This document shows positions 22,054-39,340 of a stretch of DNA of 64,000 nucleotides, one piece after another. The notes under the pieces were generated by a model. That model ran no database searches. It saw only the letters and a program-made list of their open reading frames with translations, and was not told where the DNA came from. The stretch is from Pseudomonas phage BRkr: the sequence record LC765218.1, one strand, 5' to 3'. Position numbers and translations under genes: made by a program. Each line of letters opens with the position of its first letter. Position 1 is the stretch's first letter.

Positions 22054-22119
22054 GAAATTTGAATTGAGTACTGGAATCTACATCACTGAATACTCTCGTA
22101 TACTATTAGACACGAAGTA

Positions 22120-23996: not shown

Positions 23997-24935
23997 TCAC
24001 GGGTTTTCTGGATCGTAAACCCACAGGTCATTATGATAGACACCATTTGTATAACCACCAGATAAATAAATCTTACCGTTATAAACTTCCATATTGGCGT
24101 AGAACCGAGTAGGCGGCATCTTACCAGGAGGAAGAATTATATTTGACCATGTGTCAGTTTCAATATCGTAAACACTGAAAATATGATCGTTATTAATAGT
24201 GTTAGGAGTAGAACTTGTACCAGATTGACCACCGAATACATAGATCTTATTGTTAAGAGCTACGGCAGAATGTCTGTTCCTATTTACAAGACCATTCTTG
24301 TGGGGTGTCCATGTATTGTTGTCGACATTATAACTTCTGAATGTGGCAACTGACGTATTAGCTGTTTCATAGCCACCTAACGTGTAGAGGCGTCGACCAT
24401 GACTTGTTAAAGTCGCATAACGAATTTGATAAGGTGGTGTCAAGTTAGCTACTGTGAAGTTATCGGTATTATAGCTCTTAAATTCATACATAATACCTTG
24501 TGCACCGTTACCACCAAATAGGTACACCTTATTATCAATAGCTGACATGCAATGACTGTTACGTACGGCCAATCCACCATTAGAGCGTGTTACAGGTGTA
24601 ATTGTCTCACCATCAATCGTAAACTCAATCATCGTGTTTGTATCAGCAGAACCAGTGTATCCACCGAATACATAAAACTTGTTATCAACTAAACCACCAG
24701 CTGCACGTAAATTAACGTTTGCTCCTGCCGGTAGTTCTTTCCATTCGTCTGTTAAGAAATCATAGACGGATACAGTATTGAACGCGTTAGTGGTAGCACG
24801 TCTACCACCGAAGATATAAAGTTTGTCTCCTACGACAACAGAGGTTGACTGGTTTCTTCCGACGTCGGGTCCCTGTAGCTGAACCCAACCTTGCTTACTT
24901 TTATATTCCCCAATTCCTAACAATGCTTCAAACAT
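23997..24935 (-). CDS. Kelch-repeat beta-propeller protein, 312 aa.
   Basis: N-terminus MFEALLG. Five to six blades with LYIFGG, FYVFGG, VYLFGG, LYTLGG, IYVFGG and IYLSGG motifs. Confidence 0.75.
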   Translation of the reverse strand: MFEALLGIGEYKSKQGWVQLQGPDVGRNQSTSVVVGDKLYIFGGRRATTNAFNTVSVYDFLTDEWKELPAGANVNLRAAGGLVDNKFYVFGGYTGSADTNTMIEFTIDGETITPVTRSNGGLAVRNSHCMSAIDNKVYLFGGNGAQGIMYEFKSYNTDNFTVANLTPPYQIRYATLTSHGRRLYTLGGYETANTSVATFRSYNVDNNTWTPHKNGLVNRNRHSAVALNNKIYVFGGQSGTSSTPNTINNDHIFSVYDIETDTWSNIILPPGKMPPTRFYANMEVYNGKIYLSGGYTNGVYHNDLWVYDPENP

Positions 24936-26771: not shown

Positions 26772-26860
26772 TGGTGGAGAGGACTGGACTCGAACCAGTA
26801 ATGCCCGATACGGACGGCTGATTTACAGTCAGCTGGGGTTACCAATTTTCCTATCTCTCC
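26772..26860 (-). tRNA. tRNA-Tyr with anticodon GTA, 89 nt, type II.
   Basis: Acceptor GGAGAGA/CCTCTCC, anticodon stem-loop GCTGA-CTGTAAA-TCAGC, long variable arm, T-arm ACTGG-TTCGAGT-CCAGT, and an ACCA end. Confidence 0.75.
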
Positions 26861-26904
26861 GAAATCTGGTATAGTCTTACATAGTATTACTATACCAGTA
26901 TTTA

Positions 26905-28752
26905 TTAAATTCCAAGACGATAGAACTTGTCTGTAATTGTATTATTACTGGCTCCAGTTAGACCACCGCCAACATATGCTGTGCCATTAATAAATCCACC
27001 ATAGCCATCATTCACACCGTTTGGTAGTTCTGGTAGTTTACGCCAAGTTCTCGATTGGATATTATACGCATTGGCTTTTCTACGTTTGTCTTCGTCAACA
27101 CCGCCAATGTATATAATTTCTTCATCGTTAGTCAGCATTACACCGTAACTGTTAACACCTGGCCCATCGGTAGTCGGTAGAGACTCCCATGCAAATGTAT
27201 TCATATTCATTCGATCAAATCGACCGGATTGCGAACCATTTACAAATCCACCATAGACATACATGTACTCGCCGACAACAACCGCTCTATGTGAAGATCG
27301 TTGGATACCACCTTGCGCGACTCGTTTTGACCACATGTTAGATGCAATATCGTAGACGAACAACGCGTCAGATTCATTATTCCCGCCAAGCAAATAGAGC
27401 TTACCATTATAATGAACCATCGTAGCTTGTGTTCTAAATACTGGATTAGATGAACCCGGAGAAGCGGGTGTAATAGCCGTCCAATCATTGGTCGCTACGT
27501 TATAACGCCAGAAATCCGCTGATTGGTTAGATCCACTGAATAGGTACATATGTGTATCATTTGCAGCTGCACACATATTGGCACGTGCACTCGGACTTAA
27601 ACCAGATCCAGTGAATAGACCGTTCCATGTATTAGTCTCAGGATTATATTTATTAAACGCGCCTCTATATGCACCTGTACTTGTATACCCGCCGAACATA
27701 TACAGTTCATCATCTATTACAACCGCAGTGGAACCTCGACTATCATAAGGTGCGTTTGCCATTACTTCCCATTCAGTTTTACTTGGAGGGATAGGAATAG
27801 TGAATTTATAGATAGCTGCTTTCGTTCTTTCAGGGGTGTTAAAAAGGGCATCATCGATAACAATGTCCGAACCACCGATCAGATACAGATCGCCATTCGA
27901 TGGATTTAATGCGACTGATGTCCCATGGACCTCACCAATATTCGTCTCAGTAACAACAAATTGTTTTTCGGCGATATAATAACGAACACAATGAATCTTA
28001 CCATCTTTAACGATAGTGTAGTTAAAAGTCCCGTTCCAGTACTTACCACCTTGATGACCACCGTGGTAGTCTGTAGAGTATGAATGGTACAATGTCCATG
28101 TATTAATAGCACCGGTGTATTTATAAACATCTTGGTTAACAACCCAACTGCCAGAGATGTTCTTCCATCCACCCATCACATAGAAATTCCCTTTATGGCA
28201 GAATGCATACGCTCCAGATAGAATAACAGGGCACCGGGCACTCATTACTTCTCGAACGTTATTCGATAGTCTATAGCGAATCAAAAGATCTGTTGCATGT
28301 TCCAGTACCCAAATAAATTCACCGCCATCCCAATCGCCGATACTGTTATAAGTGGATGTATTCATCAACTGATTACTAATAAGATTATCATTAGGTACAG
28401 TTGGATTGATCATCGTGATGACGTTTTGTGTCCAAGAAGCGCCACGACGCCCACCGAACATGTAAAGTCTATCGGATGTTGGAACAAATACACCCGCCGT
28501 ATGACAAAGTGAATAACTATTTTGGACAGCTGTTTTACTGATTTGAGTACCAGTGCTATCAAAAATTCTGATGTTATTATCAGTTGTACTTCTTGATGGG
28601 GCACCACTATTAATATTTAATAAACCATTTCTGAAATAGGGTACCGATCCAACCAATCCAACATCCAGTTGTCCAAACAATGTTGGTTGGTTATACGGTA
28701 TCATTTCCACTGGCTTAGCTTGCCCAGCAGCTGATAACAATAATTCAAACAT
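26905..28752 (-). CDS. Kelch-repeat beta-propeller protein, 615 aa, probably two propellers.
   Basis: N-terminus MFELLLSAAG. At least ten blade motifs (LYMFGG, FYVMGG, LYLIGG, LYMFGG, MYLFSG, LYLLGG, MYVYGG and others). The 45-nt 5' leader is conserved with gene 30471..31478. Confidence 0.75.
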   Translation of the reverse strand: MFELLLSAAGQAKPVEMIPYNQPTLFGQLDVGLVGSVPYFRNGLLNINSGAPSRSTTDNNIRIFDSTGTQISKTAVQNSYSLCHTAGVFVPTSDRLYMFGGRRGASWTQNVITMINPTVPNDNLISNQLMNTSTYNSIGDWDGGEFIWVLEHATDLLIRYRLSNNVREVMSARCPVILSGAYAFCHKGNFYVMGGWKNISGSWVVNQDVYKYTGAINTWTLYHSYSTDYHGGHQGGKYWNGTFNYTIVKDGKIHCVRYYIAEKQFVVTETNIGEVHGTSVALNPSNGDLYLIGGSDIVIDDALFNTPERTKAAIYKFTIPIPPSKTEWEVMANAPYDSRGSTAVVIDDELYMFGGYTSTGAYRGAFNKYNPETNTWNGLFTGSGLSPSARANMCAAANDTHMYLFSGSNQSADFWRYNVATNDWTAITPASPGSSNPVFRTQATMVHYNGKLYLLGGNNESDALFVYDIASNMWSKRVAQGGIQRSSHRAVVVGEYMYVYGGFVNGSQSGRFDRMNMNTFAWESLPTTDGPGVNSYGVMLTNDEEIIYIGGVDEDKRRKANAYNIQSRTWRKLPELPNGVNDGYGGFINGTAYVGGGLTGASNNTITDKFYRLGI

Positions 28753-28820
28753 GAGTATGCTCTCAAGTAAACCATTTAGTTCATAAGATAATCAGTTTGA
28801 ATAAGTTGTAGGATGTATTG

Positions 28821-29477
28821 CTATTTCGTTATGGTTAACTCAACTTTTAAATACGCTCCGGGACTTGGAGGGTCATTAGGTTCAATAACCCGGAACGTTA
28901 TCGTATCCCCATATTTTTCTTTAATAGCCGATTCGAACGCATATATCGAAACATATTTATTATCTACAAAAATGTCGAAGGTTAGAACTGGTGGAATTGT
29001 CCTATATTCAGGGCTGGCCGGTGCCATATTTTCAGTTAAATAGATTAATGCTTCAGTTACACGTGTATCAATTTGGTATAGTAAATCATCTAACATTTCT
29101 ATATTGGTTAATCGTCCAACATTTCTATCATCCTTAATTATTTTATCGGCCAACTGTTTAGGTACAGGTGATAAAATAACATGTTTTCCTTTATATGCTT
29201 CAGCATGAGGTAATGGATCTTCTATTAAAAATACATTAATAAATCCAAATCCATCATACTCAATATCGTGTGTAGATGTATTTATGCCTAGTGACAGTAC
29301 TCCCTCACGTAACATATAGCCTTTAGCTAACACCTCATATGAATCAAGTGTTCTATGATATTTTGATCCATCTTCTATATGAGGACCACCATGGGTTCTA
29401 TGTCCTACAGCATTTATAACCTTAACTTCCATAAGGTTACTGTCATCTAAAAACAGGCCTTTTGATCTATTCAACAT
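28821..29477 (-). CDS. Hypothetical protein, 218 aa, with a GHRTHGGPH motif. Possibly a metal-dependent hydrolase.
   Basis: Long minus-strand ORF between a Kelch gene and a tRNA fragment. Confidence 0.55.
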   Translation of the reverse strand: MLNRSKGLFLDDSNLMEVKVINAVGHRTHGGPHIEDGSKYHRTLDSYEVLAKGYMLREGVLSLGINTSTHDIEYDGFGFINVFLIEDPLPHAEAYKGKHVILSPVPKQLADKIIKDDRNVGRLTNIEMLDDLLYQIDTRVTEALIYLTENMAPASPEYRTIPPVLTFDIFVDNKYVSIYAFESAIKEKYGDTITFRVIEPNDPPSPGAYLKVELTITK

Positions 29478-29526
29478 TTTCAGTATCTCCTATAACTCCG
29501 ATATTGGAGTATAACATCACGGCATA

Positions 29527-29551
29527 AAAGAGTAGCCAATGGCTACTCTTT
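29527..29551 (-). terminator. Hairpin AAAGAGTAGCC-AAT-GGCTACTCTTT directly downstream of the tRNA 3' fragment. It is a duplicate of the 30214-30237 hairpin.
   Basis: 11-bp stem. A paralogous tRNA-plus-hairpin module. Confidence 0.5.
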
Positions 29552-29557
29552 TGAATT

Positions 29558-29590
29558 TGGCTCCGCGACCTGGACTCGAACCAGGGACCC
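29558..29590 (-). tRNA. A 3' tRNA fragment (variable loop, T-arm, acceptor 3' strand and GCCA). It pairs with the 5' fragment at 30341-30374.
   Basis: The reverse complement reads GGGTC-CCTGG-TTCGAGT-CCAGG-TCGCGGA-G-CCA. The acceptor 3' strand TCGCGGA is perfectly complementary to TCCGCGA at the start of the 5' fragment. Confidence 0.5.
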
Positions 29591-29603
29591 AGTATATTTT
29601 TTT

Positions 29604-30161
29604 TTATTGTGTGGGGACCAAGGTGCTAATACCCCCATTAGCACCGACCCTAATAAACCTAGCCGGAATATTGATCTTGTATGCTCGGCACCATTTACGA
29701 ATAGCGTTATCGGATACTCCATACTTCTCTCCTATTTTTACAAGTGATAGCAATGTAACATCGAGGGCAAGTTGTTCTTTGGATGGTCGATCCACCTTAC
29801 GACGACCTTTGGCTGAACACTCGGGGCTACAGAATGTTATCAGTCGGTGACTAATGACAATACCACAGCCAGCACAAAGCTTAGTTGGATAGTTCCTAGG
29901 ATCAATACCGAGCCGTTTCATCCAACCATGTAACTTCATGTGTTGTGACTGAGGGAGAATCAATAAGTTCTCTGGATGGTTGTTAAGCTTATTCTCATCC
30001 AGATGATGAACTTCCTCGTCATCGTAAAGTGGTCTACCTAATGTGTCTTCTCCAACCACTCGATGTTCGTAAACCCATCCAAACATTTTAGGGTTAGCTA
30101 TGGCTTGACGATGTTCGGGTAAATATAATGCCCTATAGCCGTTAATTATTTTCTCTTTCAT
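29604..30161 (-). CDS. HNH homing endonuclease, 185 aa, paralog of 21337..21900. It lies between the two halves of a split tRNA gene.
   Basis: HNH motif EVHHLDENKLNNHPENLLILPQSQHMKLH, a Cys cluster, and a basic C-terminal tail. Confidence 0.8.
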   Translation of the reverse strand: MKEKIINGYRALYLPEHRQAIANPKMFGWVYEHRVVGEDTLGRPLYDDEEVHHLDENKLNNHPENLLILPQSQHMKLHGWMKRLGIDPRNYPTKLCAGCGIVISHRLITFCSPECSAKGRRKVDRPSKEQLALDVTLLSLVKIGEKYGVSDNAIRKWCRAYKINIPARFIRVGANGGISTLVPTQ

Positions 30162-30213
30162 ATCGAACCTAGGATATATAAATAGATCGCTAGTTCGATC
30201 TATGTGACGGAAT

Positions 30214-30237
30214 AAAGAGTAGCCGGAGCTACTCTTT
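30214..30237 (-). terminator. Hairpin AAAGAGTAGC-CGGA-GCTACTCTTT directly downstream of the GTT tRNA.
   Basis: 10-bp stem. Homologous to 29527-29551. Confidence 0.5.
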
Positions 30238-30242
30238 GAAAT

Positions 30243-30329
30243 TGGCTGGTAAGGTAGGATTCGAACCTACGATGGGCTTTCGCCAACGGATTAACAGTCC
30301 GCCCCCTGCTACCGCTCGGGTACTTACCA
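30243..30329 (-). tRNA. Atypical tRNA, 87 nt. It has a long Ser-like variable arm but anticodon GTT, which would read Asn codons.
   Basis: Acceptor TGGTAAG/CTTACCA (7/7), D-arm CCC-GAGCGGTAGCA-GGG, anticodon stem-loop GCGGA-CTGTTAA-TCCGT, variable arm TGGCGAAAGCCCATC, T-arm GTAGG-TTCGAAT-CCTAC, and a GCCA end. Confidence 0.6.
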
Positions 30330-30340
30330 AGAAAACTATC

Positions 30341-30374
30341 CAGTCGCTTGCTCTACCGACTGAGCTATCGCGGA
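30341..30374 (-). tRNA. A 5' tRNA fragment (acceptor 5' strand, D-arm and anticodon 5' stem). It pairs with the 3' fragment at 29558-29590.
   Basis: The reverse complement reads TCCGCGA-TA-GCTC-AGTCGGTA-GAGC-A-AGCGA-CTG. No matching anticodon 3' stem (TCGCT) occurs anywhere between the fragments. Confidence 0.5.
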
Positions 30375-30470
30375 AGAATTATTAACAACTTCTTTCTTGT
30401 AGAAAAATCACAAGTAACTGAATTACAGTATTTCACTACATATTATTACAATCTGAGTTAGATAGTTATT

Positions 30471-31478
30471 TTAATCAATGGCTAATGGTGCTAGTTTTAC
30501 CTGATAGATACCTGATAACAATTGGCTTTTTAACATATATGCTCCACCACCAACTGGCATTTTAGATCCACCTGCAATGATCATGCTATTATCTGGTCCT
30601 TTGGCTATAGATGAAATATTAAGGAATCCAATACCTAGTTCAAATGGTTCAGCCCATTTCCGGCGCCTAATATTAAAACGCTGTGCAAACATTTTAGTTA
30701 CACCGCCGACATCAACTGCATTAAGGTAATTAAAATATTCCCCATCTACATAACCATTACCTTGCCATATTGTTGCTTTGTCAGCAGGTATTATTAGCCA
30801 TGGTGTTAGTTCCCATACAAGTGTAGTAACATTGTATCTATAGACTTCTAAGTTTGGTATGTTCTTAGTATTATCCCAGCCACCAAAATGGTAGAAATAA
30901 CCATTATAATAAAATAATTGTTGACCTGACCTAGGTCCACCGCTATAGTCTTGACCGCCGAGCCAGTTCTTAGTCGATGGTTTTAATCGCATGGCGTTTG
31001 TACCAACTGGATTAACACACATAATAAGATCATTGCCATCAGACGCTGACGCAGTTCCCCATAATGCACCAGGACCACTATAACGCTCAACGCGACTACC
31101 TGTGCTTATATCAAAATGTTGTATAAAGTTAGAAGTACCTGTACCCCCATCACCTGCTGCGTTCCATCCAGTAATACCACCATAAACAATAAAGTTATTT
31201 TTATGTAATGTACCAAATCCAAGTGATACACCCGGTAAAAATGTACCAGATGCTGTTGCGCTTATCTCTGTAAATGGGTTTATAGTGAACCGTCTGAAAA
31301 CAGTTGCTGCTGATTGTCCTTCCGTATGATGTCCGGATCCAACATATAACGTATTTCCATCTACGTACGACATCGTACCTGCCAATGCTACCGGTAGGTC
31401 ACCTAATTTTATAATTTCACTAAATCCAACCAAGGGTGTTTCATCGCCTAAACCTGATGATAATAGTAATTCAAACAT
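30471..31478 (-). CDS. Kelch-repeat beta-propeller protein, 335 aa.
   Basis: N-terminus MFELLLSSGLG. Blade motifs LYVGSG, FIVYGG, FYHFGG. The 5' leader is conserved with gene 26905..28752. Confidence 0.75.
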   Translation of the reverse strand: MFELLLSSGLGDETPLVGFSEIIKLGDLPVALAGTMSYVDGNTLYVGSGHHTEGQSAATVFRRFTINPFTEISATASGTFLPGVSLGFGTLHKNNFIVYGGITGWNAAGDGGTGTSNFIQHFDISTGSRVERYSGPGALWGTASASDGNDLIMCVNPVGTNAMRLKPSTKNWLGGQDYSGGPRSGQQLFYYNGYFYHFGGWDNTKNIPNLEVYRYNVTTLVWELTPWLIIPADKATIWQGNGYVDGEYFNYLNAVDVGGVTKMFAQRFNIRRRKWAEPFELGIGFLNISSIAKGPDNSMIIAGGSKMPVGGGAYMLKSQLLSGIYQVKLAPLAID

Positions 31479-31560
31479 GAGTGTGCTCTCAAGTAAATCA
31501 TTTTAGATCATAGGATAACCTTTGCGGCTCAGATATTTATTTTATTATAATAGACAGCAT

Positions 31561-31596
31561 AATGCCTCCCTTAAATAGGGGAGGCATTATGCTTTA
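31561..31596 (-). terminator. Hairpin AATGCCTCCC-TTAAATA-GGGAGGCATT downstream of tRNA-Met.
   Basis: 10-bp stem plus a T-rich tail on the minus strand. Confidence 0.5.
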
Positions 31597-31602
31597 TTAA
31601 TT

Positions 31603-31679
31603 TGGTGGGTCCAGCAGGACTTGAACCTGCGACCAAGCGATTATGAGTCGCCTGCTCTAACCAACTGAGCTATAGACCC
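31603..31679 (-). tRNA. tRNA-Met with anticodon CAT, 77 nt, elongator-type. It could instead be Ile2 if lysidinylated.
   Basis: Acceptor GGGTCTA/TGGACCC with a 1-72 base pair, anticodon stem-loop GGCGA-CTCATAA-TCGCT, T-arm GCAGG-TTCAAGT-CCTGC, and an ACCA end. Confidence 0.8.
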
Positions 31680-31723
31680 TAATTCATTATCTACATATTA
31701 GTATACATAGGGCTCTTATGACA

Positions 31724-32071
31724 TCATGGACGGTCAGTCCAGTGCTTGAAATAGTTACCATCATTAGGGCGGCCATGTTTGGTAAGAATATTTTTAAGTT
31801 CTTCGCCAGACAACTTAATTCTATCGCCTACTGGACTATCCAGTTCAGGACAGGGTTCAGTCTTACGTGTGATGATTAGATTGTCAGTTCCATCTTTGAA
31901 GATAAAGATAAACTGAGTTTCATTATCACTAATCTTTTTCTTAACGCAATGTTTTACTTCTGGATGTTTCTTGTGGATAGCTACAAAAGATTCAACAAGA
32001 GTCAGTTTCATAAACTCAGGACTAACAAATGTGAAATATACAGCGTTCTGTGTTGGGGTTAGATGATTCAT
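31724..32071 (-). CDS. Hypothetical protein, 115 aa.
   Basis: Minus-strand ORF abutting 32074..32361. Confidence 0.5.
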   Translation of the reverse strand: MNHLTPTQNAVYFTFVSPEFMKLTLVESFVAIHKKHPEVKHCVKKKISDNETQFIFIFKDGTDNLIITRKTEPCPELDSPVGDRIKLSGEELKNILTKHGRPNDGNYFKHWTDRP

Positions 32072-32073
32072 AT

Positions 32074-32361
32074 TTACTCCGTATGTTTGAGATAGGTTTC
32101 AACTGCTTTAAGACCTTTATTAAAGAACATGGTTTCAACATAAGTAATATTACTTATACTCTCCTCGATAAGTTCCCATTTGATACAACGTGTAATAGCG
32201 TTGATTGTAATATCTAATCCGTTTGGGAATAGGGTTACTTCATCAGTAAGGCGAATCCAATCGGGAGCTTTCGCTCCATTACGTAAGCGGGGACTAAACG
32301 TAAGATTGTAGAGTTTCTGCAATGGTTCTTTTAGTAGCGCTTTTTGTTCTTGGTGTTCCAT
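32074..32361 (-). CDS. Hypothetical protein, 95 aa.
   Basis: Minus-strand ORF in operon packing. Confidence 0.5.
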   Translation of the reverse strand: MEHQEQKALLKEPLQKLYNLTFSPRLRNGAKAPDWIRLTDEVTLFPNGLDITINAITRCIKWELIEESISNITYVETMFFNKGLKAVETYLKHTE

Positions 32362-32370
32362 GCGTTTCTC

Positions 32371-32592
32371 TCAAAGACATTTGAATATAAAAATAGAATA
32401 CTCGTTATGATCAGTAACTTTCAAAACGTTATCCGTTCGTAGTATCTCGTGTCTACGGTATTTGTTTTCCAAAATGTCTAAGTGTGATATGCATTGTTCT
32501 TTATTTTCAAAATGAATGGTCGATTCTTTTGTAGATGTAATTCCAAACCAGCCAACATGTATTGCCAGAACAAACATTGTCGCGATGTTCAT
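32371..32592 (-). CDS. Hypothetical protein, 73 aa. Truncated from the track ORF because its upstream part overlaps tRNA-Pro and a hairpin.
   Basis: Internal Met at MNIATMF. The track's N-terminal extension covers tRNA 32648-32723, so it cannot be coding. Confidence 0.35.
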   Translation of the reverse strand: MNIATMFVLAIHVGWFGITSTKESTIHFENKEQCISHLDILENKYRRHEILRTDNVLKVTDHNEYSIFIFKCL

Positions 32593-32647
32593 GTTTATTA
32601 TCCCGATGCAATATAATACCCTCCATAACGGAGGGCTTATATTTAAA

Positions 32648-32723
32648 TGGTCGGAGTGGAGAGACTCGAACTCCCGACATCCTGCTCCCAAAGCAGGCGC
32701 GCTACCAACTGCGCTACACTCCG
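32648..32723 (-). tRNA. tRNA-Pro with anticodon TGG, 76 nt.
   Basis: Acceptor CGGAGTG/CACTCCG, D-arm GCGC-AGTTGGTA-GCGC, anticodon stem-loop CCTGC-TTTGGGA-GCAGG, T-arm GGGAG-TTCGAGT-CTCTC, and an ACCA end. Confidence 0.8.
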
Positions 32724-32729
32724 TAAATT

Positions 32730-32815
32730 TGGTACCCGGTGTCGGACTCGAACCGACACGGCTTTCGCCGAGAGATTTTAAGTCTCTTGTGTACTACCAA
32801 TTTCACCAACCGGGC
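32730..32815 (-). tRNA. tRNA-Leu with anticodon TAA, 86 nt, type II.
   Basis: Acceptor GCCCGGT/ACCGGGT, anticodon stem-loop AGAGA-CTTAAAA-TCTCT, variable arm CGGCGAAAGCCGTG, T-arm GTCGG-TTCGAGT-CCGAC, and an ACCA end. Confidence 0.8.
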
Positions 32816-33054
32816 ATTTCTTCTCTATAAATAGAGGCTCCTCAGTATTATTCAACATAAAGCCTCCCAGTGGGAGGCGATATGCTCATCAACACAACAA
32901 GGAGAAAGATACAACTTACCAACTGAAAGGAGGGGATCACAACAGGGAGTCTTACTTCCTAGAAGCCAGCTGGAAGGGTTGCTGGCTCCGGCGCGCTGTG
33001 ATCCTAGTAAAGATGAGGAGTGACATCTCTACATATCATTACATAGCTGGTAAG

Positions 33055-33783
33055 TTATTCTTCTTCGCTAACGAAAGCAATACGCTCTTCGATATTTTCC
33101 AGAGTTATTACTTCATCGAAGTTCTCAGTAGAAACACTTGTGAAATTATGTTCTTTATCAATTTGCGCTAGTCCAATCTGCATCACTTTGCGAGCGTCTG
33201 GGCTAAGTCCATCAATACCTGCTGCTTCAATAGCAGCTTTATATCCAGTGAGGGTAGTAAGAGAAGACATGTTCTTTTCCTCTTTTTTGTTTCTTACATG
33301 AATGAAGATTATAGGTCCTTCAGATTTATACATTTCAAAACCTGGAGTTAGGATAATCTCATTATTAATATTTTTAGCTACATAACCACCACGGATAACC
33401 TTGCTGATATAACTGTTCAAACCAGCACCGCCATCAGCGAAGTATTTCATGTCCTGTAGTTGTATTTCAGTGATACTTTTTAGTGTATAAAGATAAAACA
33501 CCTCTCCACCGAATTCTACAAGCATCCAATCAGGACCATATTTGTAACTCTTTACATTAGATCTTCCGGAGCGATTGTAGTAAGTCCACATATCGTCCGT
33601 ATTATTAATAAGCTCAGTTATGGTTGGTGGTTGGATAACGTTATCTGTATCTGGTTCTACCCATACATCGTAAGGACGATCCGCGCGTGGATTGTTAACT
33701 TCATCAAACAACTGATTGATGAGGTCATCCATTTCCGCTTCGAGTGATATCGCGTATCGCAGCAAAAGGTTAATGTTAGGCAT
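33055..33783 (-). CDS. Hypothetical protein, 242 aa. Start reset to MPNINLLLRY.
   Basis: AAAGGTAACAATC-ATG ribosome-binding site. The track's upstream extension overlaps the hairpin at 33810-33839. Confidence 0.55.
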   Translation of the reverse strand: MPNINLLLRYAISLEAEMDDLINQLFDEVNNPRADRPYDVWVEPDTDNVIQPPTITELINNTDDMWTYYNRSGRSNVKSYKYGPDWMLVEFGGEVFYLYTLKSITEIQLQDMKYFADGGAGLNSYISKVIRGGYVAKNINNEIILTPGFEMYKSEGPIIFIHVRNKKEEKNMSSLTTLTGYKAAIEAAGIDGLSPDARKVMQIGLAQIDKEHNFTSVSTENFDEVITLENIEERIAFVSEEE

Positions 33784-33809
33784 GATTGTTACCTTTAGAA
33801 TTGACATAA

Positions 33810-33839
33810 CATAAAGCCCTCCCGAAGGAGAGCTATATG
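33810..33839 (-). terminator. Family hairpin CATAAAGCCCTCC-CGAA-GGAGAGCTATATG. A C-A mismatch on the plus strand becomes a G-U wobble on the minus strand.
   Basis: Strand-specific pairing supports minus-strand function. Lies after gene 33841..34254. Confidence 0.5.
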
Positions 33840-33840
33840 T

Positions 33841-34254
33841 TTACATTACTTCTCGGGTACCATCTACCATTTCAAGAACTGTAATCGTTTTACCGACCTC
33901 TGGTTTCTTGTTAGCAACAGTTTGCACCAGATGTTGCTTTCCATCAGCTTCGATAATCATTTTACACTGGAATGTTTCAGTAGCCCCTATCTCGTTTCCG
34001 ACAGCACCGCCAGCGGCGCCTCCAACGAGACCACCAATCCAGCCGCCTGATTTACCGAAGATAGCTCTACCCAACATTGCACCGCCAACTGCACCTGCTG
34101 TACCGCCAACAGTTGCACCAACGATACTGTTATCTTTAGTAACCAGTTGACACTCAGACTGCTTTACGATACCAGTGGTAGAAGATTTGATCTCCCCTGC
34201 TGCAAATGCAATTAGAGGGAACATTAGAGTTACAGCAAGAGTGATCTTTTTCAT
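33841..34254 (-). CDS. Secreted glycine-zipper protein, 137 aa. Signal peptide followed by a Gly-zipper of the GxxxG type, in the OsmB / 17-kDa-antigen family.
   Basis: N-terminal MKKITLAVTLMFPLIAFAAGE signal peptide. A Gly-rich segment GATVGGTAGAVGGAMLGRAIFGKSGGWIGGLVGGAAGGAVG. Its start overlaps the nrdB stop. Confidence 0.6.
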   Translation of the reverse strand: MKKITLAVTLMFPLIAFAAGEIKSSTTGIVKQSECQLVTKDNSIVGATVGGTAGAVGGAMLGRAIFGKSGGWIGGLVGGAAGGAVGNEIGATETFQCKMIIEADGKQHLVQTVANKKPEVGKTITVLEMVDGTREVM

Positions 34255-35411
34255 TACAGGAAATCCACATCAAATTCGTCTTTCTCACCACGGGTGTCAA
34301 GAAGGTTAACCATGTAGTCACCTTTCTCTGCTTCTTGTGGAGAGGCTTGAGTTGCCGAAATGTCGAGATATTCTACCATGAACGGCAGTGGGTTATCTTC
34401 AGGGAATTCCAGAGGAACACCAGTAAGTTCCAGGTATTCTGCCGAATGCTTTTCCAGAGTCTCCGGAATAATATTCAGGAAAGTACCAGCAGCGTTACCA
34501 TTAAACAGAACCCATTGGAACAGTTTTTGTGCGTTAACGCCAGCCAAGCTACGACCTTCGGAGAACAGGTATTTAACCCAAGTAACTTCAGTCCGAATGA
34601 TTTCCCAGAACAGTTCAACGATTTGTGGTTTACATTGCTCATAAGCAGTCATACCACGTTCAGTTTTCAGAAGAGCCTTGATGACTTCTTGTCCGTATTG
34701 GGCATGGATCTCGAATTCATCTTGAGCGATCTTCTTAACCGCTTCACCGATTTGTTGGAACAGGCCAGTTTTACAAATAGCAAAAGTCACTGCAAACGAT
34801 GCCATGAACTGAATACGTTCCAACATATAAAGTGCAATGAAGAACATGAAGATCTTATTGTAAGTTTCCTGGTTGTTGGGTACTTGCTTCAATGCATAGG
34901 CGTGAGATGTATCGTGTGCTTCACCCATTACACGTGCAACAGCAACCATGCGTTCCTGTGCTTCTTCAACGCGCAGGATTTCATCGAGAATAACACGCGG
35001 ATTCTTAAACGAACCCCGGACAATCTCGGAATAAGTAAGGGCGTGAACATCTTCGTTATCATTGATTCGAACATAACCAGTCCAAATCCTAGAGTCAGTC
35101 ATTACAGGACCAAGAATATTCACAATTGCTCGACTAGCTACAGAGTCAGCTTCCCATTGCCATGCAAGGGTTTTGATCATCATGTCGTAAGTCGATTTAT
35201 TGCATGTTTCAAATTCGATAAGACATTGTTGGAAGTCGAATTCCAATTCGTCCCAGTCAAGCTTACGTAGACGTTTGTAGAGAGACCATGGTACAGGGAA
35301 GTGAGTATGAATAGAATCTAGGAGTCCAGGTTCTTGACCAAGGATAATTTCAGGTACGTCATAGTCGGTCTTTTCTACGTTAAAGATTTTCTTGGGGAGC
35401 TTGTCAGTCAT
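34254..35411 (-). CDS. nrdB: Ribonucleotide reductase class Ia beta subunit, 385 aa. Start reset to MTDKLPKK; the track used a TTG 51 nt upstream.
   Basis: Length and iron-centre and tyrosyl-radical-region motifs typical of NrdB (…MASFAVTFAI…EAVKKIAQDEFEIHAQYGQ…). AAGGAAACTGAA-ATG ribosome-binding site. Paired with nrdA upstream. Confidence 0.85.
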   Translation of the reverse strand: MTDKLPKKIFNVEKTDYDVPEIILGQEPGLLDSIHTHFPVPWSLYKRLRKLDWDELEFDFQQCLIEFETCNKSTYDMMIKTLAWQWEADSVASRAIVNILGPVMTDSRIWTGYVRINDNEDVHALTYSEIVRGSFKNPRVILDEILRVEEAQERMVAVARVMGEAHDTSHAYALKQVPNNQETYNKIFMFFIALYMLERIQFMASFAVTFAICKTGLFQQIGEAVKKIAQDEFEIHAQYGQEVIKALLKTERGMTAYEQCKPQIVELFWEIIRTEVTWVKYLFSEGRSLAGVNAQKLFQWVLFNGNAAGTFLNIIPETLEKHSAEYLELTGVPLEFPEDNPLPFMVEYLDISATQASPQEAEKGDYMVNLLDTRGEKDEFDVDFL

Positions 35412-35517
35412 TTCAGTTTCCTTGTTGATGTCAAAATTGCTTACAATTGATATGGTTATCAAGTAAAATTATAATAACATCTTGTTAGAATATTAAAGGG
35501 CAGCTAAGAGCACGATC

Positions 35518-36465
35518 ATGTTTGAATTATTGTTATCATTACCGAAGAGAGCACCGAAGCTGACATACACCTACGATTTAGTGACATTAACACCAAGACC
35601 AACAATAGCTAATCATGCCACGGCCTGTGAACATGCTGGAAAATATATGTTGGTGGTGGACTTAACGCATCTACTCGTTCTATAAACAACTTCGATATTT
35701 ACGATATTGAAAATGATGCATGGACAGTTGGTGCAGTACTACCTGGTCAAAGACGATCGGGTGTAATGGCAGCTGACGGTAATCGCGTTATTTACGTCGG
35801 TGGGTATAACCAAGGTGGTAACCCAGTAGGACCGTTCTCTACAATCTACACTTACAATACAGCTAATAATACTTGGGGAACTTCAAACACGAGCGACGTA
35901 GCGCGATTTGAAGCTACAGGTATCCCGTTAGCAGGTGGACAGGTTATTGACTACTCTGGTTGGTCTGGTACGACAATGTTACCCAACGCTAGTCGTATTG
36001 ATGTTAATCCAACTGGTGGTGTTAGTACAACCCCATTACCAAATATACCGGCAGCTTATAGAACCCGTTATGCTGGTTCGTGCCGTAATGGAAATGACAT
36101 TTATATTGGTGGTGGATTAGACTCTGCTGGTTCTCCAGTAGATACATTCTTTTTACTATAGCCCCGTCACGAATACATTTAGGGCACTTGCACCGTTGCC
36201 AGTAAAACTAAATGCGGTTCAGTTGATGTGGCATAACAATGAAGTTATTGCTTATCTAGTAAATAGTGGTATATGGGCATATAACCCTGGTTCAAATGAA
36301 TGGAGACCTGTAAATGAAACTCCATCTGGAAATGTACATGGTTTATCGACCGGTGTACAAGTTAATAACGAACTATATCTAATCGGTGGTTTTGATACAG
36401 CTCGTCATGGATACCTTTCTAAGATTGTACCAACCTTGGTAGCAATAGATGACGTTCCAGTGTGA
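35518..36465 (+). pseudogene. A Kelch-repeat paralog on the strand opposite to the nrdA-nrdB operon, disrupted by two homopolymer frameshifts.
   Basis: Three consecutive open segments: frame 1 35518-35685 (MFELLLSLPKRAPK…ACEHAG), frame 0 35631-36161 (KIYVGGGLNAS…IYIGGG…DTFF), frame 1 36142-36465 (YYSPVTNTFRALAPLP…LYLIGGFD). Concatenated they give a protein of about 330 aa that aligns to the other Kelch paralogs. Shifts fall at an A4 run (35640-35643) and a T5 run (36150-36154). Confidence 0.6.
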
Positions 36466-36468
36466 CAT

Positions 36469-36498
36469 CATAAAGCCCTCCCCTAAAGGGAGGGCGAT
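36469..36498. terminator. Family hairpin CATAAAGCCCTCCC-CTAAA-GGGAGGGCGATAT between the convergent Kelch pseudogene (plus strand) and nrdA (minus strand).
   Basis: 7-bp GC stem at a convergent junction. Confidence 0.5.
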
Positions 36499-36504
36499 AT
36501 ATCG

Positions 36505-38790
36505 TTACAGAGTACAGGCACCGCCAGCACATCCTTTCGAACCATCGTTATTTTCAAACGCAGATTCAAGAGCAGCCAGGGACAGGTTAGCAGAAGTCTC
36601 GGTATTCATGTAGTATCGAGTCTTCATACCAAGCTTAACTTGCAGGAAGTAGTCGCGAAGCATTTCGTTGGAGCTAATCTTCTCATCGCCGATAATCCGA
36701 CGATACAGGTCAGCAGAAATACCTTGGTCGGTCCATTTCTGGAAGATAGCGTAAGCTTCGATCATGTCCTTAGTTGGAATATCATAAGCCAGTTCGTACT
36801 TATACGCTTTGTCGTCTCCAAACGGGGCAGCCCAGTTAATCAGGTTATTGTTGTCCGACTTATTGATAACCAGACGACGAACCGGGTAAATAGAGTTAGC
36901 ACCACCTACCGCTTTCGAGGAGGCTTCACCTGGCATGTATGCAACAAGTACCGAGTGGCCGATACCACCGTTAGCAATGATTTCCTTACGAAGTTTCTCC
37001 CAGTTGTAAATGTTCTCAAACCCACCTGGTACGATTTCATCTACATTTCGTTTGTAGGTATCAAGAGGCAGCCAACCTTCAGGCCACAGAGTCTTATGTA
37101 TCCACGGTGCAAGACCACGTTCTTTAGAGATCCGCAGTGATGCCTCGATCAGGTGATACATGTGGCGTTCTGCAACAAAGTGCATCTCGCGCTTACCGGC
37201 CTCAGAAGAATACGCCAGACCGGCGCGGGCCATGTGTGTAGCAAGACCCATGATACCAACCCCAGCACTCATACGCTGTTTGGCAGTGAAACCGAGATGA
37301 GGGAAAGCATATTCTGCATTGAGGATACAATAATCAATCATCTTCAGTGCATAGTAAGCCGCTTTACGATAAGTTGCTGCATCAGGGATATTGTCAACAA
37401 CGATTGCTGCGAGAGAACAGGTAGCAATCTCACCTCGACCATGGTCTTCCTCAGAATAGAGGTCACGCATGTCGTAGTAAGGTTTGGTTGGTTCAGCAAT
37501 TTCCATGCAGAGGTTCGAACTATGAATCGGCTCTTTAAACGGAGTATGGCGATTCATTTCATCGATTTGAGCAGTATATGCAACACCAGTTTCATAGGCT
37601 TCGTTAAGAACCGTTTTTAGAAGATCCCGTGCATCGATGTATGTCTTAGTGAAATTCGGATCTGCTTCATACTTCTCGTAGAGTTCTTTGAACTTAGCTT
37701 GATCTTTACCGTAGAATGCTTCGAACAGGTCAGGTGCAGTATACGGGTTAAATACGAAGACCTTTTCATTCTTAGCTGCTTTAGCTGCGAACAGAACGTT
37801 ACCCATTGCTGCATAGTGAAGATCACGATTCTTACGGTCTTCAGTAGAGCGAGGGTTACGGAGTTGAGAGATCATATCCGCTTCTGGGTCAAAGAGACTA
37901 TAGAAGCTAGTTACAGCACCGCCGCGACCATTTTGCAGGTTAGCTCGAACAGCCTTACCCATTACATCGATGTAAGGTTTCTTACCTTGGTGAACGATGA
38001 GACCGTTACGTACAGGATCCCCAACAGAACGGGACATGATGTTTACACCAATACCAGCCGAAGACTGGGTCATGATGTTCGCGATGTAGTCTCCGATAGC
38101 CAACGAAGTACCGTTGTCGCCAGAAGCGAAGAGGCAGCAAGAAGCAAAGCCCCGCAGTACAGTACCAAGATTAACGTAGTTAGGAGTCGGCGCCGACAAT
38201 TGTTTTTGAGAGAACAATTCATAATAGTTCTTCACATGTTCCAGCCGCTCAGCTTTAGGTTCTTTCTCAGAAAGAGCCATTGCCATCCGCATGTATGTAA
38301 ACTGCTGAGTTTCATACTCTTTTCCAGACACGCGATTACGAAGGGAATACTTACCACGGATATGATGGAGAGCGAAATGGGGGGAATTGAAATCAAGATC
38401 ATGATTAATCATCTCCTGGATAGCCTGATATTCATCATCGCTATAATCCAGTTTGATCATTACTCCATCTTCATGCATTTTGGCATGAAGTTGTTTTACT
38501 GTCGGAATACCGTCCAGTCCATAGATTTTCTTACGCAGAAATACTGCGTACAGACGACCAGCCATTAGGTAATACGACCAGGTCTTACGATTAAGACATT
38601 CTTCGATCAGCCAACCCTGGAACTCCTGAGATGTAACCTTTTTGGGCTTACCGCTTACAGCACCTAGTACGATACTACCCCAGTCAACTTTGTTGCCCAG
38701 ACGTGCCGCTGCCCACTCACCCCAGCCATTTGCTTTCTCGTTATCGAAGGGTTGTTCAGTGCCATCCAGTTTGATAATAGTTTCAATCAT
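36505..38790 (-). CDS. nrdA: Ribonucleotide reductase class Ia alpha subunit, 761 aa.
   Basis: ATP-cone-like N-terminus, catalytic-site region …SNLCMEIA…, radical-transfer tyrosines, and a C-terminal redox Cys pair GCAGGACTL. Size matches NrdA. Confidence 0.9.
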   Translation of the reverse strand: MIETIIKLDGTEQPFDNEKANGWGEWAAARLGNKVDWGSIVLGAVSGKPKKVTSQEFQGWLIEECLNRKTWSYYLMAGRLYAVFLRKKIYGLDGIPTVKQLHAKMHEDGVMIKLDYSDDEYQAIQEMINHDLDFNSPHFALHHIRGKYSLRNRVSGKEYETQQFTYMRMAMALSEKEPKAERLEHVKNYYELFSQKQLSAPTPNYVNLGTVLRGFASCCLFASGDNGTSLAIGDYIANIMTQSSAGIGVNIMSRSVGDPVRNGLIVHQGKKPYIDVMGKAVRANLQNGRGGAVTSFYSLFDPEADMISQLRNPRSTEDRKNRDLHYAAMGNVLFAAKAAKNEKVFVFNPYTAPDLFEAFYGKDQAKFKELYEKYEADPNFTKTYIDARDLLKTVLNEAYETGVAYTAQIDEMNRHTPFKEPIHSSNLCMEIAEPTKPYYDMRDLYSEEDHGRGEIATCSLAAIVVDNIPDAATYRKAAYYALKMIDYCILNAEYAFPHLGFTAKQRMSAGVGIMGLATHMARAGLAYSSEAGKREMHFVAERHMYHLIEASLRISKERGLAPWIHKTLWPEGWLPLDTYKRNVDEIVPGGFENIYNWEKLRKEIIANGGIGHSVLVAYMPGEASSKAVGGANSIYPVRRLVINKSDNNNLINWAAPFGDDKAYKYELAYDIPTKDMIEAYAIFQKWTDQGISADLYRRIIGDEKISSNEMLRDYFLQVKLGMKTRYYMNTETSANLSLAALESAFENNDGSKGCAGGACTL

Positions 38791-38944
38791 CTCTATTTTT
38801 CCAGTTGTTTATTGCGTAAAACGTAAATTGATGAATTCTAACATAACTAAAACCACGCAAGTATTTTTACGATCATTTAGTTTTAAATAAGTTAAAATCT
38901 TCTAACAGCATACCATACAACACCTAAAAAGAAGAACTACTCAG

Positions 38945-39340
38945 ATGGAAAAGGATATGCTATTTATTTCAATCTGGAGAATACAAATGCCTTATTATCA
39001 AGCTATTCTACCACTCGTAGAAGCTCACCAATGGTTTAAAAATGGCGACCATCCCATGGACCGCACCGTTAATGGAATTAACGAAGGGGCTATCGTTGGA
39101 CGGCATATTAGCCATGGTAGTGTACAAGGTGGAATGATCTGTCCTGACTGTAACTGTAAGATGGCCCTTCATGGGATCCTTAAAGTTCGAACTGACGATA
39201 GTCCCGCTGTTGTTTGTCCAGGTGACTATATTGAGTTTATTCGGGATGACAAGAAACGTATTCTGAGTTACAGGCTTCATCATAAAAAAGAATTTGAAGC
39301 GATCTTTGAAAAAGTTGTTACCAATGGAGTTAAGAAATGA
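38945..39340 (+). CDS. Hypothetical protein, 131 aa, with a CPDCNC…HG motif.
   Basis: Plus-strand ORF opening the frd-containing cluster. Confidence 0.5.
   Translation: MEKDMLFISIWRIQMPYYQAILPLVEAHQWFKNGDHPMDRTVNGINEGAIVGRHISHGSVQGGMICPDCNCKMALHGILKVRTDDSPAVVCPGDYIEFIRDDKKRILSYRLHHKKEFEAIFEKVVTNGVKK

What the first reader, a model, noticed from the sequence alone, without database searches (positions are those of the whole stretch)
35518..36465. An antisense Kelch paralog wedged between nrdB and nrdA, broken by two homopolymer frameshifts (A4 and T5)
The region between the minus-strand nrdA and nrdB carries a plus-strand Kelch gene whose product can be read only by switching frames twice. 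Frame 1 (35518-35685) gives MFELLLSLPKRAPK…ACEHAG. Frame 0 (35631-36161) gives KIYVGGGLNAS…NRVIYVGGY…DIYIGGGLDS…DTFF. Frame 1 again (36142-36465) gives YYSPVTNTFRALAPLP…ELYLIGGFD. Both shifts sit exactly at mononucleotide runs: GGAAAATAT at 35638-35646 and TTCTTTTTA at 36147-36155. The reconstructed 330-aa protein aligns along its whole length with the intact paralogs. Three readings are possible: a decaying inverted insertion into the nrd operon, homopolymer sequencing errors, or slippage-mediated (phase-variable) expression of a fibre paralog.
Basis: seen in the sequence. Interest (0 to 1): 0.6.

Follow-up and report, generated by a model that had tools for sequence, protein, structure and literature searches.

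The report
Twice-frameshifted accessory Kelch virion gene
A giant Pseudomonas phage carries, between its two ribonucleotide-reductase genes, a rare extra gene for a Kelch-propeller particle protein that two one-base slips have recently switched off; this is an ordinary gene loss, not a new expression mechanism.

Summary
Window 35518-36465 (+) is a 948-nt Kelch gene lying between nrdB and nrdA, both on the minus strand. It can be read only as three frame segments.

The one close relative that has the gene, Pseudomonas phage HHBS36_1, holds it at the same place as one intact 315-aa ORF. Against that ORF the window has A5->A4 at 35640-35643 and a T insertion in the run 36150-36154.

Repairing both sites gives an open 315-aa ORF, not 330 aa. 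It is 92% identical to HHBS36_1, scores as well on Pfam Kelch_1, and models as a confident six-bladed propeller.

Between the two shifts dN/dS is 0.046 in the ancestral frame. The gene was therefore under strong constraint until shortly before it broke.

Sequencing error is unlikely. The other 18 window/HHBS36_1 indels in 58 kb all avoid coding bodies. Separately assembled Logan contigs of run DRR459603 match the window exactly, and one spans both sites.

The gene sits on a ~1-kb lineage-specific insertion that is absent from phiKZ, PA1C, phiLBG22, phiHQ, PS119XW and HPP-Temi. It is a distant paralog of phiKZ gp298, an adsorption factor dispensable on PAO1.

Best reading: a recent pseudogene of a dispensable host-range protein. 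Phase variation and programmed frameshifting are not supported.

The parts
34254..35411 (-). nrdB (ribonucleotide reductase small subunit), intact, 385 aa from ATG 35411
   Evidence: Colinear with HHBS36_1 CDS0009. dS=0.11 and dN=0 against HHBS36_1.
35455..36467 (+). Lineage-specific ~1.0-kb insertion (upstream region + Kelch ORF + 2 nt) that replaces ~46 nt of the PA1C-type nrdB-nrdA spacer
   Evidence: Junction alignments with PA1C. The phiKZ and PA1C spacers are homologous to each other and lack the gene. The gene is also absent from phiLBG22, phiHQ and PS119XW and from HPP-Temi. GC is 41.9% against 42.9% for the window.
35447..35475 (+). Sigma70-like promoter match TTGATA-17-TATAAT (11/12) upstream of the Kelch ATG. 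A 10/12 match on the minus strand (35496-35468) faces nrdB.
   Evidence: Consensus scan only. Function not shown. phiKZ-type phages use their own RNA polymerases (PMC7598289).
35518..35685 (+). Segment 1: start codon and codons 1-42 of the Kelch gene (MFELLLSLPKR...ACEHAGK), then 13 out-of-frame codons and TAA. This 55-aa ORF is what is actually encoded.
35640..35643 (+). Shift site 1: A4 run, where the intact ortholog has A5 (1-nt deletion)
35640..36152 (+). Segment 2: codons 42-212 of the ancestral protein (KIYVGGGLNAS...PVDTFF), readable only in the -1 frame. That frame stops at TAG 36159-36161.
   Evidence: dN/dS=0.046 in this frame against 5.8 and 1.5 in the other two frames.
36150..36154 (+). 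Shift site 2: T5 run (1-nt insertion). The ortholog reads TTCTTCTAT. Removing one T restores ...TFFYYSPV...
36154..36465 (+). Segment 3: codons 213-315 (YYSPVTNTF...AIDDVPV) plus TGA, back in the frame of the ATG. From about 36223 onward the sequence is 100% identical to HHBS36_1.
36475..36495 (-). GC-rich hairpin followed by a T-rich tail on the minus strand: terminator-like element after nrdA, shared with phages that lack the insert. It also closes the Kelch gene on the plus strand, where it has no U tract.
36505..38790 (-). nrdA (ribonucleotide reductase large subunit), intact, 761 aa
   Evidence: dS=0.068 against HHBS36_1.
30471..31478 (-). Intact paralog: ortholog of phiKZ gp298 (335 aa, 90.7% aa identity), with the same MFELLLS N-terminus
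   Evidence: (phrog_19623, E=1.6e-203). Function of gp298 from PMC12676376.
26905..28752 (-). Intact paralog, 615 aa, MFELLLSAAG... N-terminus with Kelch repeats
23997..24935 (-). Intact paralog, 312 aa, MFEALLGIG... N-terminus, strong Kelch propeller
   Evidence: Kelch_1 E=3e-46.

Best explanation
This is a recently inactivated copy (pseudogene) of an accessory gene for a Kelch-propeller virion protein.

The intact form encodes 315 aa: a short N-terminal M-F-E-L-L-L-S peptide shared with other virion proteins of the phage, followed by a six-bladed Kelch beta-propeller. By analogy with its distant paralog phiKZ gp298, it would ride on the particle at low copy number and help adsorption to particular Pseudomonas aeruginosa strains, while being dispensable on permissive hosts. 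This functional step is inferred.

The gene arrived as a compact ~1-kb cassette between the nrdA terminator hairpin and the nrdB leader. It exists in the phage population as highly divergent alleles that are shuffled by recombination.

In this phage two replication-slippage mutations, A5->A4 and T4->T5, cut the product to 55 aa. This is shown, if the sequence is accepted as correct. The loss was tolerated because the function is conditional and the phage keeps three intact paralogs, including the gp298 ortholog. Whether the loss was neutral or selected, and whether it happened in nature or during laboratory propagation, cannot be told from the sequence.
For: - An intact ortholog of identical length lies at the identical position in HHBS36_1; the window differs by -1 and +1.
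- The repaired ORF has no stop codons, is 92% identical in protein, and scores 91.0 bits on Kelch_1 against 90.2 for the intact ortholog.
- The AF2 model has pLDDT 88.6 and pTM 0.88, with TM about 0.77 to six-bladed Kelch domains. The top viral matches are Kelch and virion proteins of PS119XW, Noxifer, PA7 and PhiPA3.
- dN/dS is 0.046 between the shifts in the ancestral frame (dS=0.84), so the breakage is recent relative to the age of the allele.
- The lesions look real. The 18 other indels against HHBS36_1 in 58.4 kb all fall in intergenic DNA or at the very ends of CDSs. This is the pattern of mutations filtered by selection, not of random errors.
- Logan contigs DRR459603_9 and _12 are 100% identical to the window over 12.2 kb; contig _9 includes both sites.
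- Dispensability is plausible. The gene is absent from six related phages. phiKZ gp298 is non-essential on PAO1 but is needed for adsorption to some wild isolates (PMC12676376). The window keeps an intact gp298 ortholog and two more Kelch paralogs.
Against: - Two hits in one 948-nt gene, with no other sign of decay, is somewhat unexpected for slow neutral loss.
- No read-level data were available. The Logan assembly probably uses the same reads as the deposited genome, so it excludes an assembler or polishing artefact but not a systematic read error.
- Only two alleles exist in all the databases searched, so the timing of the shifts cannot be polarised.
- 'Old but still translated by recoding' would also give a low dN/dS.
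- The function is inferred from a paralog that is only about 24% identical.
Confidence: 0.72

Rival explanations
1. Sequencing or assembly artefact: the phage really has A5 and T4 and one intact 315-aa ORF.
For: - Both changes are one-base run-length changes, the classic error type of some platforms.
- The repaired ORF is perfect and shows no decay.
- The two errors would cancel in length.
- The Logan contigs of the run are short and separated by a 32-nt gap, which hints at modest coverage.
Against: - No other coding body in 58 kb carries an indel relative to HHBS36_1. An error rate of 2 per 948 nt would predict on the order of a hundred.
- A separate k-mer assembly (Logan) of DRR459603 is identical over 12.2 kb, with one of its two contigs spanning both sites. 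That level of agreement is hard to obtain from error-prone reads.
- Runs of 4-5 nt are short for systematic consensus errors.
Confidence: 0.1
2. Phase-variable (contingency) expression: slipped-strand mispairing at the two tracts switches the gene ON and OFF within phage populations.
For: - The shifts lie in mononucleotide runs.
- The gene belongs to a host-range-type family in which variable expression could be useful.
Against: - The tracts are only 4 and 5 nt. The window contains hundreds of equal or longer runs, for example 61 A5 and 44 T5.
- The T tract is not conserved in the only ortholog, which reads TTCTTCTAT.
- Two independent tracts would both have to revert for the ON state.
- There are no heterogeneity data.
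Confidence: 0.04
3. Dual translational recoding: ribosomes slip -1 at GGA-AAA-U and +1 at UUU-UUA, giving a small amount of full-length protein. The arrangement is maintained to set the dose of a low-copy virion protein.
For: - At both sites the slipping tRNA re-pairs perfectly: Lys on A-AAA and Phe on U-UUU (read from the sequence).
- A low dN/dS in the out-of-frame middle segment would also fit continued translation.
- A hairpin 5 nt downstream of site 2 folds better than shuffles (z=-2.2).
- gp298-type proteins are of low abundance in the virion.
Against: - The ortholog is a single frame, so the arrangement is not conserved.
- U-GGA-AAA is not a canonical X-XXY-YYZ heptamer.
- There is no stimulatory structure after site 1 (z=-0.5), and the site-2 hairpin is absent from HHBS36_1.
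- UUA is not a slow codon here: it makes up 13% of Leu codons, is the commonest Leu codon in this gene, and the phage encodes tRNA-Leu(UAA).
- There is no Rfam match.
- Two inefficient events multiply to a negligible yield.
Confidence: 0.03
4. The pieces are expressed separately (55-aa, 131-aa and 79/89-aa products) and still act, for example by assembling into a split propeller.
For: Gene callers predict the 131-aa and 79-aa ORFs. Each piece retains Kelch motifs.
Against: - The middle frame has no start codon before 35766, so blade 1 is lost and the N-terminal peptide is detached from the propeller.
- There is no convincing ribosome-binding site before the internal starts.
- The ortholog is a single chain.
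Confidence: 0.01

Closest known systems
Pseudomonas phage HHBS36_1 CDS0008 (XOD41400.1, 'hypothetical protein')
   Different: It is intact in HHBS36_1. The first 720 nt are a very divergent allele (dS about 0.9 against 0.07-0.11 in the flanking nrd genes).
phiKZ gp298 (PHIKZ298) and its ortholog at window 30471-31478
   Same: A Kelch-repeat protein of similar size with the same MFELLLS N-terminus. It is a virion protein that is non-essential on PAO1 and acts as a strain-specific adsorption factor.
   Different: Only about 24% identical. The repaired protein does not hit the gp298 PHROG (phrog_19623). The genomic locus and strand differ. The gp298 copy in the window is intact.
Frameshift-inactivated accessory fibre genes of laboratory phages (lambda PaPa stf; fibreless laboratory T5)
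   Same: A dispensable adsorption or host-range gene silenced by a small mutation while the phage stays viable on its propagation host. The lambda stf case is from my own knowledge. The laboratory-adapted fibreless T5 is mentioned in PMC11313276.
   Different: Here there are two indels rather than one, the protein is a Kelch propeller and not a fibre, and it is unknown whether the loss arose in the laboratory.
Homopolymer contingency loci (phase variation)
   Same: Frame changes at mononucleotide runs.
   Different: The runs are far shorter than in known switches, they are not conserved, and two sites are involved.
Programmed -1 frameshift of phage tail assembly chaperones (lambda G/GT, G-GGA-AAG)
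   Same: Site 1 contains GGA-AAA, which resembles the lambda slippery sequence (my own knowledge).
   Different: The heptamer is not canonical (U-GGA-AAA), the arrangement is not conserved in the ortholog, and a second shift in the opposite direction would be needed.

Membership tests
Kelch-repeat beta-propeller proteins | Several Kelch motifs above the Pfam gathering threshold | tested here: met
   Kelch_1 scores 91.0 bits (cut-off 20.1) for the repaired protein and 90.2 bits for HHBS36_1. Kelch_6, Kelch_4, Kelch_2 and Kelch_3 are also above their cut-offs.
Kelch-repeat beta-propeller proteins | Closed six-bladed propeller fold | tested here: met
   AF2 pLDDT 88.6, pTM 0.88. Foldseek TM 0.74-0.78 to the LZTR1, NS1-BP and KLHL12 Kelch domains.
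phiKZ gp298 family (phrog_19623, virion structural or adsorption factor) | Significant match to the family profile | tested here: not met
   The intact HHBS36_1 ortholog, scanned in place of the repaired window protein, hits phrog_12615, 16120, 11786, 8229 and 16216 but not 19623 at E<=0.001. The window gp298 ortholog hits 19623 at E=1.6e-203. BLASTP against gp298 gives E=7e-4 to 0.03.
phiKZ gp298 family (phrog_19623, virion structural or adsorption factor) | Shared N-terminal MFELLLS peptide | tested here: met
   Identical first seven residues in the window copies at 35518, 30471-31478 and 26905-28752 and in phiKZ gp298.
phiKZ gp298 family (phrog_19623, virion structural or adsorption factor) | Presence in the virion and a role in adsorption | not testable with these tools
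   Known only for phiKZ gp298 (PMC12676376). The phiKZ structural atlas does not mention gp298.
N-acetylneuraminate epimerase (NanM, PF24996) | Score above the family gathering threshold | tested here: not met
   31.5-34.9 bits against a cut-off of 45.
Pseudogene | Reading frame disrupted relative to an intact ortholog | tested here: met
   -1 and +1 against HHBS36_1; the product stops after 55 codons.
Pseudogene | The lesions are real, not sequencing artefacts | tested here: inconclusive
   Supported by the absence of indels in all other coding bodies and by identical Logan contigs, one of which spans both sites.
Pseudogene | Relaxed selection or further decay | tested here: not met
   dN/dS is 0.05-0.07, there are no stop codons in the repaired frame, and the Kelch score is undiminished. 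If it is a pseudogene, it is a young one.
Phase-variable contingency locus | Long, conserved simple-sequence tract (typically at least 7-8 nt for homopolymers) | tested here: not met
   A4 and T5. The T tract is interrupted in the ortholog. Such runs are common across the window.
Phase-variable contingency locus | Run-length heterogeneity within populations | not testable with these tools
Programmed ribosomal frameshift | Frameshift arrangement conserved among orthologs | tested here: not met
   The HHBS36_1 ortholog is a single ORF.
Programmed ribosomal frameshift | Canonical slippery site plus a stimulator (structure, Shine-Dalgarno sequence or slow codon) | tested here: not met
   U-GGA-AAA is not X-XXY-YYZ. 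Site 1 downstream fold has z=-0.5. The site-2 hairpin (z=-2.2) is not conserved. UUA is not rare and a phage tRNA-Leu(UAA) is present. No Rfam match.

The most novel reading that the evidence does not exclude
The two shifts are not a dead end but a dosage device. A -1 slip on GGA-AAA-U and a +1 slip on UUU-UUA would together yield trace amounts of full-length Kelch protein. This would keep a low-copy adsorption factor on a minority of particles and would explain why the out-of-frame middle segment still looks perfectly conserved.
Probability: 0.03. Interest if true: 0.7.

Novelty: new member of a known kind. Interest (0 to 1): 0.25.

Why it matters
As a broken accessory gene it mainly matters for annotation. 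The locus should be marked as one frameshifted pseudogene, not as two or three small hypothetical genes.

The context is more useful. It shows a rare, compact Kelch cassette that has entered the nrdA-nrdB spacer of a few Pawinskivirus-like jumbo phages. The cassette circulates as very divergent alleles (dS about 0.9 against 0.1 in the flanking genes). It belongs to a set of propeller proteins with a common N-terminal peptide, one of which (phiKZ gp298) was recently shown to decide adsorption to wild P. aeruginosa strains.

For phage-therapy candidates of this group, which of these Kelch genes are present and intact may predict host range. This phage and HHBS36_1 form a natural broken/intact pair for testing that idea.

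Tried and rejected
- **Search for a third allele to date the shifts.** I used tblastn against 50,697 phage records, the 5.8-billion-protein search, IMG/VR by protein and by an exact 30-mer, GTDB genomes and JGI metagenomes. These returned only generic Kelch proteins at 24-40% identity, so the shifts could not be polarised.
- **Is the PA1C-type spacer a remnant of a deleted Kelch gene?** The local alignment score was no better than shuffles (103 of 500 shuffles scored as high). This was rejected. With the phiKZ spacer as outgroup, the gene is an insertion.
- **Known RNA elements.** Rfam gave no match at E<=1.
- **Stimulatory RNA structures.** There is none at site 1. The hairpin at site 2 is modest and not conserved.
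- **Repeats at the insert borders.** Only a 13-nt imperfect inverted repeat was found, probably a chance match.
- **Literature.** DRR459603 is not mentioned in any held paper. The phiKZ structural atlas does not place gp298.
- **Strict mutual exclusivity of gp298 and the nrd-Kelch gene.** HPP-Temi lacks both at the syntenic loci, so this stands only as 'never two intact copies' in a very small sample. The rest of the HHBS36_1 genome was not searched for a gp298 copy.

Full report
**What is in the sequence**

Window 35518-36465 on the plus strand lies between nrdB (34254-35411, minus strand) and nrdA (36505-38790, minus strand).
- The frame of the ATG at 35518 gives MFELLLSLPKRAPK...ACEHAGK and stops at 35683-35685.
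- The next frame is open from 35631 to 36161 and reads KIYVGGGLNAS...PVDTFF.
- The first frame is open again from 36142 to the TGA at 36463-36465 and reads YYSPVTNTF...LIGGFD...AIDDVPV.

GGAAAATAT begins at 35638 and TTCTTTTTA at 36147.

**Where the window comes from, and the key comparator**

The window is a phiKZ-related Pseudomonas jumbo phage of the PA1C / PS119XW / HPP-Temi group. HPP-Temi is classified in the genus Pawinskivirus.

The closest record is phage HHBS36_1 (PQ287642.1). It is colinear with the window at 91-99.5% identity over 58.4 kb. At exactly the same place, HHBS36_1 has one intact plus-strand ORF of 948 nt, the same length as the window interval. It is annotated as a hypothetical protein of 315 aa.

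The pairwise alignment shows only two indels in the gene:
- The window lacks one A of an A5 run (GGAAAAATA in HHBS36_1 against GGAAAATA).
- The window has one extra T, about 510 nt further on (TTCTTCTAT against TTCTTTTTAC).

Adding one A and removing one T gives an open 315-aa frame that is 92% identical to the HHBS36_1 protein.

**Is it a Kelch gene, and what are the paralogs?**

The repaired protein scores 91.0 bits on Pfam Kelch_1, and the HHBS36_1 protein scores 90.2 bits.

It is all-beta, and only the first ~10 and last ~5 residues are poorly ordered. The model superposes on six-bladed Kelch domains at TM about 0.77. Among viral models it best matches Kelch and 'virion structural' proteins of PS119XW, Noxifer, PA7 and PhiPA3.

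The window holds three intact paralogs with the same N-terminus:
- 30471-31478 (335 aa)
- 26905-28752 (615 aa)
- 23997-24935 (312 aa)

A 216-aa virion protein at 43297-43947 starts with MIEILLS.

Similarity of the broken gene to these paralogs is low: 23-26% identity, with a best E of about 2e-8 over residues 1-251. The statement that it aligns with the paralogs along its whole length is therefore only loosely true.

The 335-aa paralog is the ortholog of phiKZ gp298 (90.7% identity). A transposon-mutagenesis preprint (PMC12676376) reports the following for gp298:
- It is a Kelch protein.
- It is of low abundance in the virion.
- It tolerates insertions during growth on PAO1.
- It is required for adsorption to two wild isolates.

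The phiKZ cryo-EM atlas does not mention gp298. 'Fibre' is therefore not established for this family. 'Tail-associated adsorption factor' is the published inference.

**Insertion or deletion?**

PA1C, PS119XW, phiLBG22 and phiHQ match only the nrd flanks. PA1C has a 129-nt spacer between nrdB and nrdA, phiKZ has a 100-nt spacer, and HPP-Temi has 148 nt.

The junction alignments give these boundaries:
- Left homology ends near 35454.
- Right homology resumes at 36468, two bases after the Kelch stop codon and just before the GC-rich hairpin that follows nrdA.

The phiKZ and PA1C spacers are homologous to each other. The 46 nt specific to PA1C show no significant similarity to the insert. The gene is therefore a ~1.0-kb insertion in the HHBS36_1/window lineage.

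Its GC content equals that of the phage, so the source was another phage of this kind and not the host. The insert carries its own upstream region, with sigma70-like hexamers in both directions. Their use is unproven, because these phages transcribe with their own polymerases (PMC7598289).

**How old are the frameshifts?**

I computed Nei-Gojobori estimates between the repaired window gene and HHBS36_1:

| Region | dS | dN | dN/dS |
|---|---|---|---|
| Segment between the shifts, ancestral frame | 0.84 | 0.039 | 0.046 |
| Same segment, wrong frame (offset 1) | 0.039 | 0.224 | 5.8 |
| Same segment, wrong frame (offset 2) | 0.130 | 0.190 | 1.5 |
| Whole gene | 0.569 | 0.038 | 0.067 |
| nrdA | 0.068 | 0.001 | 0.008 |
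| nrdB | 0.112 | 0.000 | 0 |

The first 720 nt of the Kelch gene are thus a roughly ten-fold more divergent allelic patch. It was kept under strong purifying selection and moved by recombination. The last 228 nt and the terminator are identical in the two phages.

Because constraint is still fully visible in a frame that the window can no longer read, the shifts are young relative to the allele. The only alternative is that the frame is still being translated.

**Real or artefact?**

Across the 58.4 kb aligned with HHBS36_1 there are 20 indels. Checked against the HHBS36_1 annotation, the other 18 all lie in intergenic DNA or at the extreme ends of CDSs. Many of them are also homopolymer length changes.

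This is the signature of genuine mutations filtered by selection. Random homopolymer errors would fall mostly in coding sequence, which makes up most of the genome. The comparison with PA1C likewise shows no lesion in any window gene. Instead, PA1C itself lacks one G in nrdA.

The exact nrdA, 131-aa and gp298-like proteins of the window occur in only one public sample, run DRR459603. Its Logan contigs _9 (window 35406-39054) and _12 (26853-35373) are 100% identical to the window; contig _9 includes both shift sites.

This rules out an assembler or polishing artefact and argues for accurate reads. It is probably the same read set, however, so a systematic read error is not formally excluded. 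I put the artefact reading at about 10%.

**Phase variation and recoding**

The tracts are 4 and 5 nt long. The window contains 171 A4, 61 A5, 169 T4 and 44 T5 runs. In the ortholog the T tract is interrupted. Two tracts would have to change together to turn the gene ON. None of this resembles a contingency locus.

For ribosomal recoding, both sites allow perfect re-pairing of the slipping tRNA. That is true of any frameshift mutation in a homopolymer and only predicts trace leakiness. The evidence against a programmed event is:
- The arrangement is not conserved in the ortholog.
- U-GGA-AAA is not a canonical heptamer.
- No structure follows site 1 (z=-0.5). The hairpin after site 2 (z=-2.2) is absent from HHBS36_1.
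- UUA is a normal codon here, and the phage supplies a tRNA for it.
- Rfam finds nothing.

**Distribution pattern (a lead, not a result)**

| Phage | gp298 ortholog | nrd-Kelch gene | Calls |
|---|---|---|---|
| phiKZ, PA1C, phiLBG22, phiHQ | present | absent | 6, 43, 45 |
| HHBS36_1 | absent at the syntenic locus | intact | 16 |
| HPP-Temi | absent at the syntenic locus | absent | 73 |
| Window phage | intact | broken | this report |

No phage seen so far has both genes intact. With so few genomes this may be chance, and the rest of the HHBS36_1 genome was not searched. It would, however, fit redundancy of, or competition between, proteins that share one N-terminal docking peptide.

**Verdict**

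The best explanation is a young pseudogene of a dispensable, host-range-type Kelch virion protein carried on a rare insertion in the nrd spacer (confidence about 0.7). Sequencing error stands at about 0.1, and phase variation and recoding at a few percent each.

It is a new member of a known kind and of modest interest. It is chiefly an annotation fix, plus a convenient natural broken/intact pair (this phage and HHBS36_1) for testing what these Kelch proteins do.

Noticed in passing
window ~38189 (nrdA); L007:19798-19917 in PA1C: PA1C (MK599315) annotates nrdA as two overlapping CDSs. Compared with the window it lacks a single G (GTC-GCGCC against GTCGGCGCC). The PA1C split is therefore a frameshift or sequencing error in PA1C. 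nrdA is intact (761 aa) in the window, HHBS36_1 and HPP-Temi.
   Followed up: partly
window 28791-31458: A 2.7-kb block holding the gp298 ortholog, an HNH_3 endonuclease ORF and tRNA-Asn has no counterpart in HHBS36_1. HPP-Temi also lacks a gp298-sized gene at this locus. The tRNA/Kelch region is a hotspot of presence/absence variation.
   Followed up: partly
window 35518, 31478, 28752, 24935, 43947 (N-termini): Five ORFs start with M-[FI]-E-[LAI]-L-L-[SG]: four Kelch proteins and a 216-aa virion protein next to the tail genes. The only 32%-identical homologs from metagenomes begin with MLEINL and MLEDNL. This may be a shared docking peptide for modular virion proteins.
   Followed up: partly
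window 35520-36240 versus 34254-35159 and 36241-38790: There is a sharp mosaic boundary. The first 720 nt of the Kelch gene have dS about 0.9 against HHBS36_1, whereas the 3' end of the gene and most of nrdA and nrdB are 98-100% identical. A second, milder divergent patch covers the 5' end of nrdB (35160-35400, 88-93% identity).
   Followed up: yes
L028 (Logan ERR2586125 contig, 4244 nt), gene 2058-2963: The closest non-orthologous relative (P0001, 32% identity, 301 aa) sits next to a dCTP deaminase gene on a phage-like contig. This is another Kelch gene embedded among nucleotide-metabolism genes.
   Followed up: no
window 35447-35496: A divergent pair of near-consensus sigma70-type promoter matches lies at the left end of the insert: 11/12 on the plus strand toward the Kelch gene and 10/12 on the minus strand toward nrdB. 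This is unexpected for a phage group thought to be independent of host RNA polymerase.
   Followed up: no
window 35421-35433 and 36463-36475: A 13-nt imperfect inverted repeat (85% complementary) brackets the insertion. It is probably a chance match.
   Followed up: no
window 22065-22091: A 27-nt insertion relative to HHBS36_1 lies immediately beside tRNA-Thr (21976-22053), in intergenic DNA.
   Followed up: no
window 35374-35405: The two Logan contigs of DRR459603 that cover this region end 32 nt apart inside the start of nrdB. This suggests a local coverage gap in that run rather than a repeat, because the flanking 30-mers are unique in the window.
   Followed up: partly
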